Positions 62,884 to 63,168 of a stretch of 64,000 bases of DNA are shown piece after piece; within the stretch, counting starts at the first letter, position 1; each line of letters opens with the position of its first letter. The notes under the pieces were generated by a model. That model was not told the origin of the DNA, made no database searches, and was given only the letters and a program-made list of their open reading frames with translations. Location of the stretch: assembly GCF_036507355.1 (NCBI RefSeq), contig NZ_AP027878.1. One strand, given 5' to 3'. The DNA is from Escherichia coli (GTDB lineage: Bacteria > Pseudomonadota > Gammaproteobacteria > Enterobacterales > Enterobacteriaceae). A program made the position numbers and the translations under genes.

Positions 62884-63168
62884 GTGGCAAGTATTGCAAC
62901 AAAAGACAGCATTTGTTCGGGGCACGGAGGATTCCCATCCAGGCCTCCTGTAGAGAGTGAACCACTACTTAAAGTCAACGGAGTCGAAGTGTTAGTTGAT
63001 GGTAAGCAATATGCACAGCATACCGATGGAAACAGTACGCACGGTGGGCAAGCTATATCAACCAGGGCATGGTTTACCGTCAATGGTAAAGGGATCGTAT
63101 GCGTTGGTGACCCTGTTTCATGCGGATCTACCGTAGCGTCCGGAGACGGCCTGGTTCAGGTAAGTTAG
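62884..63168 (+). CDS. PAAR-like spike-tip protein
   Basis: 94 aa; SICSGHGG ... TVNGKGIVCVGDPVSCGSTV resembles PAAR repeats; GTG start. Confidence 0.45.
   Translation: MASIATKDSICSGHGGFPSRPPVESEPLLKVNGVEVLVDGKQYAQHTDGNSTHGGQAISTRAWFTVNGKGIVCVGDPVSCGSTVASGDGLVQVS

What the first reader, a model, noticed from the sequence alone, without database searches (positions are those of the whole stretch)
62884..63168. PAAR-like small protein outside the baseplate cluster
The 94-aa ORF has the repeated small-residue, Cys and His pattern of PAAR spike-tip proteins, but lies ~9 kb from the gpV-like spike gene (53610-54242) and is divergent from the C1-controlled hrdC-dmt operon.
Basis: inference. Interest (0 to 1): 0.3.

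Follow-up and report, generated by a model that had tools for sequence, protein, structure and literature searches.

The report
Phage P1 UpfC spike-tip protein

Summary
The window is a P1-like phage (Punavirus), 95-98% identical to P1 records. The 94-codon ORF at 62884-63168 (+) is gene upfC. Its product is 93/94 identical to chain A ('UpfC') of PDB 9VYI, the cryo-EM structure of the P1 baseplate. It also matches T4 gp5.4 (E about 1e-7) and the Vibrio PAAR protein VCA0105 (E 3.7e-4).

My AlphaFold model (pLDDT 95.9) superposes on 9VYI (TM 0.95), T4 gp5.4 (0.86) and two T6SS PAAR proteins (0.87-0.88). His14, His46, His53 and Cys80 are invariant in 25 homologues and align with the three-His-plus-Cys metal site of T4 gp5.4.

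Published work already shows the following:
- One UpfC monomer caps the trimeric gp5 spike, encoded here at 53610-54242.
- UpfC is dispensable for plaque formation.
- The downstream gene product, UpfB, is a 'tripod' placed at the spike tip.

So upfC is not isolated: upfC-upfB is a two-gene baseplate module, conserved in all four divergent phage-plasmid loci I checked. Published RNA-seq gives it late kinetics, unlike the divergent C1-controlled uhr-hrdC-dmt operon.

Observation confirmed and interpretation supported, but all of it is already known. The small open ends are an unidentified promoter and a probably mis-annotated upfB start.

The parts
62884..63168 (+). upfC coding sequence: 94 aa, GTG start, TAG stop. 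Standalone PAAR-repeat spike-tip protein.
   Evidence: ORF. Annotated as upfC in P1. 93/94 identical to PDB 9vyi_A 'UpfC'. AF2 model pLDDT 95.9 with TM 0.95 to 9VYI and 0.86-0.88 to T4 gp5.4, VCA0105 and c1882.
62874..62878 (+). GGTGA Shine-Dalgarno-like sequence, 5 nt upstream of the GTG start of upfC
   Evidence: Read directly from the sequence. Identical in P1. Function is inferred.
62923..62925 (+). Codon for His14, predicted metal ligand 1
   Evidence: Invariant in 25 homologues. Aligns with T4 gp5.4 His14, whose H14A mutant fails to bind the spike (PMC12407873).
63019..63021 (+). Codon for His46, predicted metal ligand 2
   Evidence: Invariant. Aligns with T4 gp5.4 His46.
63040..63042 (+). 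Codon for His53, predicted metal ligand 3
   Evidence: Invariant. Aligns with T4 gp5.4 His56.
63121..63123 (+). Codon for Cys80, predicted metal ligand 4
   Evidence: Invariant, within the conserved D-P-x-S-C-G motif. Aligns with T4 gp5.4 Cys83. Cys11 and Cys73 vary and are not conserved in T4.
63177..63965 (+). upfB coding sequence, 262-aa form, with AGGAG at 63167-63171 as its ribosome-binding site. Published as the 'tripod' protein placed at the spike tip.
   Evidence: ORF. PHROG 1559 covers residues 1-262 of a 263-position profile, E 1e-137. Homologues in L004-L007 follow the PAAR gene and align from residue 1. Tripod role from PMC12810830.
53610..54242 (+). P1 gene 5: the trimeric central spike (OB fold plus beta-helix, no lysozyme, no HxH apex) that UpfC caps
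   Evidence: PDB 9vzk_q 'Gp5' at E 7.6e-137. Pfam Phage_base_V OB domain at 21 bits, below the 23.8 cut-off. PHROG 430 baseplate hub at E 1.7e-51. No HxH motif. Spike role from PMC12810830 and PMC9024508.
62786..62802 (-). C1 repressor operator Odmt (Op68), controlling the divergent uhr-hrdC-dmt operon
   Evidence: ATTGCTCTAATAAATAT, 1 mismatch to the operator consensus. Annotated at the equivalent position in P1.
62430..62714 (-). uhr, first gene of the divergent early operon (context only)
   Evidence: Coordinates mapped from the P1 annotation onto the window ORF.

Best explanation
The ORF is upfC of a P1-type phage. It encodes a standalone PAAR-repeat protein, an orthologue in function and fold of T4 gp5.4.

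Shown in published cryo-EM: one UpfC monomer caps the blunt C-terminal end of the trimeric gp5 beta-helix (gene 5 at 53610-54242), forming the tip of the central tail spike.

Inferred from conservation and from T4: a tetrahedral metal site made of His14, His46, His53 and Cys80 ties the three beta-hairpins into a sharp cone. In T4 the metal is iron and the site is needed for folding and spike binding.

Inferred by analogy with T4 and the T6SS: on sheath contraction, the sharpened tip leads the tube through the outer membrane.

Other points:
- The gene is translated from a GTG start and is followed immediately by upfB. A published medium-resolution map fitted with an AlphaFold3 model places UpfB trimers as a 'tripod' at the spike tip.
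- upfC-upfB is a conserved tip module, transcribed late and divergently from the C1-repressed early operon uhr-hrdC-dmt.
- The protein is dispensable for plaque formation on laboratory E. coli. By analogy with T4 gp5.4, it probably improves fitness or matters on hosts with altered envelopes.
For: Identity:
- The region is 94-98% identical to 18 P1-type phage records, and this ORF is annotated upfC.
- The product is 93/94 identical to PDB 9vyi_A 'UpfC'.

Family:
- phmmer hits to T4 gp5.4 (5iv5_ZA 8.6e-8, 4ku0_D 1.2e-7), Klebsiella phage KP1 9f4b_BA (4.8e-10) and VCA0105 4jiv_D (3.7e-4).
- Pfam PAAR_motif E 8.5e-6; PHROG 281 'PAAR motif' E 2e-30.

Fold:
- AF2 model pLDDT 95.9, pTM 0.85.
- Foldseek TM 0.95 to 9VYI, 0.92 to 9f4b_BA, 0.86 to 4ku0_D, 0.88 to 4jiv_D and 0.87 to 4jiw_D. 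Nothing else scores above TM 0.7.

Metal site: H14, H46, H53 and C80 are invariant in 25 homologues down to 40% identity. They align with T4 H14, H46, H56 and C83. T4 has a three-His-plus-Cys Fe site, and its H14A mutant abolishes spike binding (PMC12407873).

Partner: gp5 matches 9vzk_q. It has the OB domain and no HxH apex motif, so it is a spike type expected to need a separate tip.

Virion location: monomeric UpfC on trimeric gp5 at 3.2 A, with the UpfB tripod at the tip (PMC12810830; bioRxiv 10.1101/2025.07.21.665459).

Dispensability: the deletion has no plaque defect (PMC9024508), and CRISPRi scores the gene non-essential (PMC10695390).

Timing: P1vir RNA-seq values are log fold change at 10 min then 30 min (PMC8201110 Table S1).
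- upfC 4.86 then 10.63.
- Gene 5: 4.23 then 9.90. Gene 6: 3.60 then 10.81. Gene 23: 5.44 then 12.07.
- uhr, hrdC and dmt are already at 8.6-9.4 at 10 min.

Module: UpfB homologues (24-29% identity, E 1e-16 to 3e-23) lie just downstream of the PAAR gene in L004-L007: directly after it in L004-L006, after one intervening 122-aa gene in L007.
Against: - The Pfam score (26.4 bits) is 0.6 bits under the gathering cut-off of 27, and covers only residues 51-91.
- LC-MS/MS of purified P1 virions did not detect UpfC. The authors attribute this to one small copy per virion (PMC9024508).
- In one of the two cryo-EM studies, the spike model was an AlphaFold multimer superimposed on the map without refinement.
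- No loss-of-function phenotype is known in P1, so membrane piercing or 'sharpening' as a needed function is inferred rather than shown.
- The metal has not been identified for UpfC.
- I found no canonical Lpa-dependent late promoter (AAGTNACTT-N4-TANNNT, up to 2 mismatches) within 700 bp upstream, despite the late kinetics. The only sigma-70-like match (62845-62873) would start transcription about 3-4 nt before the GTG.
- I do not know whether the RNA-seq was strand-specific.
Confidence: 0.95

Rival explanations
1. UpfC serves mainly as an adaptor: its main job is to dock the UpfB tripod (or other cargo) on the spike, as T6SS PAAR proteins carry effectors, rather than to sharpen the spike. 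This refines the best explanation and does not exclude it.
For: - upfC and upfB are adjacent, and the pairing is conserved in 4 of 4 divergent phage-plasmid loci. UpfC stays 55-62% identical while UpfB drops to 24-29%.
- PMC12810830 places UpfB trimers at the spike tip.
- Both genes are non-essential.
Against: - The UpfB density is only medium resolution and was fitted with an AlphaFold3 model, and the paper calls the function speculative.
- T4 and the P2-like relatives L002/L003 have the same PAAR protein without any UpfB, so the tip role does not depend on UpfB.
- The other P1 baseplate study does not mention UpfB in the passages I read.
Confidence: 0.3
2. It is a T6SS-type PAAR protein or 'moron' carried by the phage for the benefit of the host (PHROG 281 is filed under 'moron, auxiliary metabolic gene and host takeover'), not a virion part.
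For: - The PHROG category label.
- JGI names homologues 'Zn-binding protein involved in type VI secretion'.
- The NCBIfam T6SS_PAAR_dom model aligns over residues 4-93.
Against: - The NCBIfam score is 36.3 bits against a cut-off of 124.
- The closest solved relatives are phage spike tips.
- The protein is seen on the P1 spike by cryo-EM.
- Its transcript has late kinetics like structural genes.
- There are no T6SS genes nearby, and the protein has no effector extension.
Confidence: 0.02
3. It is an 'alanine racemase', as many NCBI records name its homologues, or a chance ORF.
For: Only the database names, for example P0005, P0007, P0009 and P0015, and Salmonella phage SJ46 KU760857.
Against: - The protein is 94 aa and all-beta with a PAAR fold.
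- It has no Pfam or NCBIfam racemase hit.
- It is strongly conserved in sequence and length across 71 homologues, which excludes a chance ORF.
Confidence: 0.005

Closest known systems
Bacteriophage P1 UpfC (YP_006534; PDB 9VYI chain A)
   Same: The same gene. 93 of 94 residues are identical (Ser86 here, Ala86 in the PDB chain). Length, GTG start and neighbours (uhr-hrdC-dmt divergent, upfB downstream) are all the same.
   Different: One conservative substitution. The intergenic stretch 62812-62843 differs from P1 at 9 positions, although the region as a whole is 97% identical.
Bacteriophage T4 gp5.4 (PDB 4KU0 chain D; 5IV5 chain ZA)
   Same: Both are standalone PAAR-repeat monomers of about 95 aa that cap the trimeric gp5 beta-helix. 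The three-His-plus-Cys metal ligands align, and TM is 0.86. Both are dispensable for plaque formation.
   Different: - Identity is about 28-31%.
- T4 gene 5.4 lies in the gene 5 to gene 6 interval, next to the spike gene, whereas upfC is 8.6 kb from gene 5 and paired with upfB, which T4 lacks.
- T4 gp5 carries a lysozyme domain and P1 gp5 does not (PMC12810830, PMC9024508).
- The conditional requirement on deep-rough LPS mutants has been shown only for T4.
T6SS PAAR proteins VCA0105 (PDB 4JIV) and c1882 (PDB 4JIW); Pfam PF05488; NCBIfam NF033420
   Same: Same conical fold (TM 0.87-0.88). They bind the blunt end of a VgrG/gp5-type beta-helix. VCA0105 shows detectable sequence similarity (E 3.7e-4).
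   Different: Identity is 14-22%. UpfC is far below the NCBIfam equivalog cut-off (36 vs 124 bits). It is a phage virion part, not a secretion-system component, and has no effector extension.
P2 gpV-type spikes and the V-PAAR arrangement of P2-like prophages (loci L002, L003)
   Same: L002 and L003 encode a 94-aa PAAR protein 40-43% identical to UpfC, together with an OB-fold spike of the Phage_base_V family.
   Different: There the PAAR gene sits directly between V and W-J-I, the canonical baseplate order, with no UpfB. P2 gpV proper has the tip fused to the spike (PMC12407873), which P1 gp5 does not (no HxH motif).

Membership tests
PAAR-repeat superfamily (Pfam PF05488; structures 4JIV, 4JIW, 4KU0) | Significant sequence similarity to PAAR-repeat proteins | tested here: met
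   Pfam PAAR_motif E 8.5e-6, although at 26.4 bits it is 0.6 below the gathering cut-off of 27. PHROG 281 E 2e-30. phmmer to 4ku0_D 1.2e-7 and to 4jiv_D 3.7e-4. Most homologues carry a precomputed PF05488 hit.
PAAR-repeat superfamily (Pfam PF05488; structures 4JIV, 4JIW, 4KU0) | Compact conical all-beta fold of about 90-100 residues | tested here: met
   AF2 model pLDDT 95.9, all-beta. Foldseek TM 0.86-0.95 and rmsd 0.7-2.3 A to 9VYI, 9f4b_BA, 4ku0_D, 4jiv_D and 4jiw_D. The next unrelated hits have TM of about 0.3.
PAAR-repeat superfamily (Pfam PF05488; structures 4JIV, 4JIW, 4KU0) | Tetrahedral metal site (three His plus one Cys) near the cone apex | tested here: met
   Tested at the residue level only. 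H14, H46, H53 and C80 are invariant in 25 homologues and align with T4 gp5.4 H14, H46, H56 and C83 (site described in PMC12407873). Metal occupancy and identity cannot be tested with these tools.
PAAR-repeat superfamily (Pfam PF05488; structures 4JIV, 4JIW, 4KU0) | Binds as a monomer to the blunt end of a trimeric spike beta-helix | not testable with these tools
   No multimer prediction or docking tool was available here. Reported experimentally: monomeric UpfC on trimeric gp5 in P1 cryo-EM (PMC12810830; PDB 9VYI appears).
Phage standalone spike-tip proteins (T4 gp5.4 type) | The cognate spike lacks its own apex (no C-terminal HxH motif), so it needs a separate tip | tested here: met
   gp5 (53610-54242) has one His in total and no HxH motif. 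The criterion is taken from PMC12407873.
Phage standalone spike-tip proteins (T4 gp5.4 type) | Expressed with the late (structural) genes | tested here: inconclusive
   Published RNA-seq shows late-type kinetics (4.86 at 10 min, 10.63 at 30 min). I found no canonical P1 late promoter upstream, and I do not know whether the data are strand-specific.
Phage standalone spike-tip proteins (T4 gp5.4 type) | Gene lies next to the spike gene (typical, not defining) | tested here: not met
   upfC starts 8.6 kb after gene 5 ends (and coordinates). The P2-like relative L002 has V directly followed by PAAR. This is a matter of genome organisation and does not bear on membership.
T6SS PAAR protein (NCBIfam NF033420 equivalog) | Score at or above the curated equivalog cut-off, and a T6SS gene context | tested here: not met
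   36.3 bits against a cut-off of 124. The context is a phage-plasmid genome with no T6SS genes nearby.

The most novel reading that the evidence does not exclude
The evidence does not exclude that upfC-upfB is a conditionally essential envelope-penetration or host-range module. UpfC would matter only on hosts with altered LPS or outer membranes, as T4 gp5.4 does on hldD mutants. The fast-evolving UpfB tripod docked on it would adapt the tip to different hosts. The pair would be transcribed late from a promoter that does not fit the known Lpa-dependent consensus.
Probability: 0.3. Interest if true: 0.35.

Novelty: already known. Interest (0 to 1): 0.06.

Why it matters
For a genome scan it matters little. 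The gene, its PAAR nature, its place in the virion and its dispensability are already in GenBank/RefSeq, the PDB (9VYI) and at least five papers.

It does carry some residual value:
- It shows that a spike-tip gene can sit far from the spike gene, so synteny-based annotation can miss it.
- The conserved upfC-upfB pairing supports the recently proposed 'tripod on the tip'.
- It flags widespread mis-annotation of this family, as 'alanine racemase' and under the PHROG 'moron' category.
- The promoter and the biological benefit of the P1 tip are still undetermined.

Tried and rejected
1. P1 late promoter search. I derived the motif from the annotated LP23 (AAGTGACTT-N4-TAAAAT). I searched the whole window at up to 2 mismatches and 700 bp upstream of the PAAR gene in the window, in P1 and in four relatives. 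Nothing convincing lay upstream of upfC. The best local candidate, AAACAACCT-GAGT-TAAAAT at 62833-62851, has 3 mismatches.

2. Generic sigma-70 scan. It gave one weak site, TTAAAA-17-AATAAT at 62845-62873, fewer than the 2.4 expected by chance. It would yield an almost leaderless mRNA, and its -10 element is AATCAT in P1. I do not accept it as the promoter.

3. Ancestral gp5-upfC adjacency. I tested whether the 226-aa gene directly upstream of the PAAR gene in the Serratia-type relatives (L004/L005) is a gp5 homologue. It is not: BLASTP E 6.1, and tblastn found no match in the window.

4. UpfB against solved structures. There were no hits; the published UpfB model is an AlphaFold3 prediction.

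5. Lobocka et al. 2004 (PMC523184) is not held in the library. What that paper says about upfC is known to me only through the GenBank note.

6. The antisense ORFs over the locus (62793-63083, 96 aa; 62699-62965, 88 aa) are disregarded as by-products of the coding frame.

7. I did not use the second structure job, the large representative-protein search or the collection scans. The identity was settled without them.

Full report
**What is at the coordinates**

The window carries a 94-codon ORF at 62884-63168 on the + strand. It has a GTG start, a TAG stop and a GGTGA Shine-Dalgarno-like sequence 5 nt upstream.

The product is rich in Gly (14), Val (13) and Ser (11).

Megablast of 62400-64000 finds 18 phage records, all covering the full query at 94-98% identity. 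They include P1, P7, SJ46, RCS47 and other Punavirus phages.

In P1 NC_005856 the ORF is upfC (YP_006534). It has the same length and the same neighbours. The original GenBank note already records 31% identity to T4 ORF 5.4, and RefSeq labels it 'PAAR motif'. The window runs in reverse orientation relative to the P1 record.

**Is it a PAAR protein?**

Sequence evidence:
- phmmer against PDB sequences gives 9vyi_A 'UpfC' (93/94 identical, E 1.7e-60).
- Further hits are Klebsiella phage KP1 baseplate chain 9f4b_BA (4.8e-10) and T4 gp5.4 (5iv5_ZA 8.6e-8; 4ku0_D 1.2e-7).
- The Vibrio cholerae PAAR protein VCA0105, 4jiv_D, scores 3.7e-4.
- Pfam PAAR_motif scores 26.4 bits (E 8.5e-6). That is 0.6 bits under the gathering cut-off and covers only the last third of the protein.
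- PHROG 281 ('PAAR motif') matches the full length at 2e-30.
- The NCBIfam T6SS PAAR equivalog aligns over the whole length but scores 36 bits against a cut-off of 124. So this is not a T6SS-type equivalog.

Fold evidence:
- A 25-sequence alignment of homologues down to 40% identity gave an AlphaFold2 model with pLDDT 95.9 and pTM 0.85, all-beta.
- Foldseek against the PDB returns only PAAR proteins as good matches: 9VYI (TM 0.95, rmsd 0.7 A), 9f4b_BA (0.92), 4ku0_D T4 gp5.4 (0.86), 4jiv_D (0.88), 4jiw_D (0.87) and phiKZ gp163.1 (0.68).
- Everything else falls to a TM of about 0.3.

Metal site:
- His14, His46, His53 and Cys80 are invariant across the alignment, while Cys11 and Cys73 vary.
- In the HMMER alignment these four align with T4 gp5.4 His14, His46, His56 and Cys83.
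- The T4 study describes a tetrahedral site of three His and one Cys, identifies the metal as iron, and reports that H14A abolishes binding to the spike (PMC12407873).
- The ligand assignment for UpfC is therefore a well-grounded inference. The metal itself is untested.

**The partner and the virion evidence**

The 'gpV-like' gene at 53610-54242 is P1 gene 5.
- It matches PDB 9vzk_q 'Gp5' at E 7.6e-137.
- It matches PHROG 430, baseplate hub/tail lysozyme family, at E 1.7e-51.
- It has a sub-threshold Phage_base_V OB-domain hit of 21 bits.
- It has no HxH motif. According to PMC12407873, an HxH motif marks spikes that carry their own apex and lack a separate tip.

Published work on the virion:
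- Gonzales et al. 2022 (PMC9024508) identified UpfC by HHpred as the gp5.4 homologue.
  - They found no plaque defect on deletion.
  - They did not detect UpfC by LC-MS/MS of virions, which they attributed to one small copy per virion.
- Genome-wide CRISPRi also scores upfC and upfB as non-essential (PMC10695390).
- A 2025 preprint places UpfC at the needle tip. Its spike was an AlphaFold multimer superimposed on the map without refinement.
- A 2026 PLoS Pathogens paper reports a 3.2 A baseplate map (PMC12810830).
  - It has manually built models of trimeric gp5 and monomeric UpfC.
  - It also proposes that UpfB forms three trimeric 'tripods' anchored at the spike tip.

**Surroundings**

Downstream, upfB:
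- upfC is followed directly by upfB.
- The P1 annotation starts upfB at the ATG equivalent to 63120, overlapping upfC by 49 nt.
- Three observations favour ATG 63177 instead, giving 262 aa.
  - An AGGAG lies 5 nt upstream of it, straddling the upfC stop codon.
  - PHROG 1559 aligns residues 1-262 to profile positions 1-263 of 263.
  - Four divergent homologues align from residue 1, and three of them begin at the PAAR gene's stop codon.

Upstream, the divergent operon:
- The C1 operator Odmt lies at 62786-62802 (1 mismatch to the consensus).

**Comparative context**

In four divergent phage-plasmid loci, the PAAR gene (55-62% identical) is followed by a UpfB homologue. These are L004 and L005 (two near-identical contigs), L006 and L007. 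UpfB is only 24-29% identical, at E 1e-16 to 3e-23. In L007 one small gene intervenes.

rdgC and a DNA methyltransferase gene (a Dam-family gene in L007) are nearby in all four, though their orientation and the intervening genes differ. So upfC-upfB is a conserved pair, with a slowly evolving tip and a fast-evolving tripod.

A more distant homologue (40-43% identical; L002, L003) sits in a P2-like prophage in the canonical order V-PAAR-W-J-I, without UpfB. This shows what the usual 'inside the baseplate cluster' arrangement looks like.

I also tested whether the 226-aa gene upstream of the PAAR gene in L004/L005 is a gp5 homologue. It is not.

**Expression**

Table S1 of a P1vir RNA-seq study (PMC8201110) gives these log fold changes:

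| Gene(s) | 10 min | 30 min |
|---|---|---|
| upfC | 4.86 | 10.63 |
| upfB | 4.12 | 11.07 |
| gene 5 | 4.23 | 9.90 |
| gene 6 | 3.60 | 10.81 |
| gene 23 | 5.44 | 12.07 |
| uhr, hrdC, dmt | 8.6-9.4 | 11.1-12.0 |

upfC and upfB behave like the structural genes. The divergent uhr-hrdC-dmt operon is already high at 10 min. This fits late expression of a structural gene.

However, I found no canonical Lpa-type late promoter upstream of upfC. The motif, taken from LP23, was searched in the window, in P1 and in relatives. The only sigma-70-like match, at 62845-62873, is weak, would give an almost leaderless transcript, and is degraded in P1. The P1 record annotates no promoter for upfC. The promoter remains unidentified.

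**Mechanism**

Shown in the literature: one UpfC monomer caps the gp5 trimer at the distal end of the tail.

Inferred:
- The metal site of three His and one Cys rigidifies the cone.
- The sharpened tip leads the tube through the outer membrane on sheath contraction.
- The tip, the spike and possibly UpfB are then shed.
- UpfC may also serve as the docking point for UpfB.

No phenotype is known for P1 delta-upfC. In T4, loss of gp5.4 costs fitness and blocks infection of deep-rough LPS mutants, which suggests the experiment to do in P1.

**Verdict**

Interest is low. The minor open points are the promoter, the upfB start codon, the metal identity, the biological benefit of the tip in P1, and widespread misnaming of the family in databases.

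Noticed in passing
window 63120-63179: The P1 annotation starts upfB at the ATG equivalent to 63120, overlapping upfC by 49 nt (281 aa). ATG 63177 is better supported and gives 262 aa. It has an AGGAG 5 nt upstream. PHROG 1559 aligns 1-262 to 1-263 of 263. Four divergent homologues align from residue 1, and three of them begin at the PAAR gene's stop codon.
   Followed up: partly
window 62715-62883: No recognisable promoter for upfC-upfB. There is no Lpa-type late promoter motif with up to 2 mismatches, and only one weak sigma-70-like site (62845-62873), placed too close to the start codon. Yet published RNA-seq shows late-type kinetics. The P1 record annotates no promoter here either.
   Followed up: partly
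window 62812-62843: A 32-bp patch between the C1 operator and upfC differs from P1 at 9 positions, while the flanks are almost identical (97% overall). The stretch just upstream of the start codon (62844-62883) is conserved except for one base.
   Followed up: no
homologues of window 62884-63168 (P0005, P0007, P0009, P0011, P0015, P0028, P0038, P0042; SJ46 KU760857): Many NCBI and UniRef records name this 94-aa PAAR protein 'alanine racemase'. PHROG 281 files it under 'moron, auxiliary metabolic gene and host takeover'. Both labels are wrong for a virion spike-tip protein.
   Followed up: partly
window 62430-62714 (-): uhr is labelled 'nucleoside triphosphate pyrophosphohydrolase' in RefSeq. 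The extended 118-aa ORF gave no Pfam hit at E<=1. I did not test the annotated 94-aa form or the fold.
   Followed up: no
window 33127-33164: The late-promoter pattern search picked up by chance the two arms of a loxP-like site (ATAACTTCGTATA ... TATACGAAGTTAT). The window therefore spans the cre-loxP region at the conventional start of the P1 map and is permuted relative to NC_005856.
   Followed up: no
whole window: There are 15 matches to the C1 operator consensus ATTGCTCTAATAAATTT at up to 3 mismatches, against 0.36 expected by chance. They include an overlapping pair at 59253-59280, in front of the ban region at the dmt end. This is consistent with the known dispersed C1 regulon of P1.
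   Followed up: no
L004 7061-7594; L005 7061-7585; L006 6070-6546: In the divergent relatives L004, L005 and L006, the gene after the UpfB homologue has an N-terminal hydrophobic segment. In L004 this is followed by a charged, possibly coiled-coil region, and L005 has a weak DUF2570 hit. This echoes ppfA/mlp downstream of upfB in P1, where RefSeq labels mlp 'Rz-like spanin'. The tip module may be co-transcribed with envelope or lysis-related genes.
   Followed up: no
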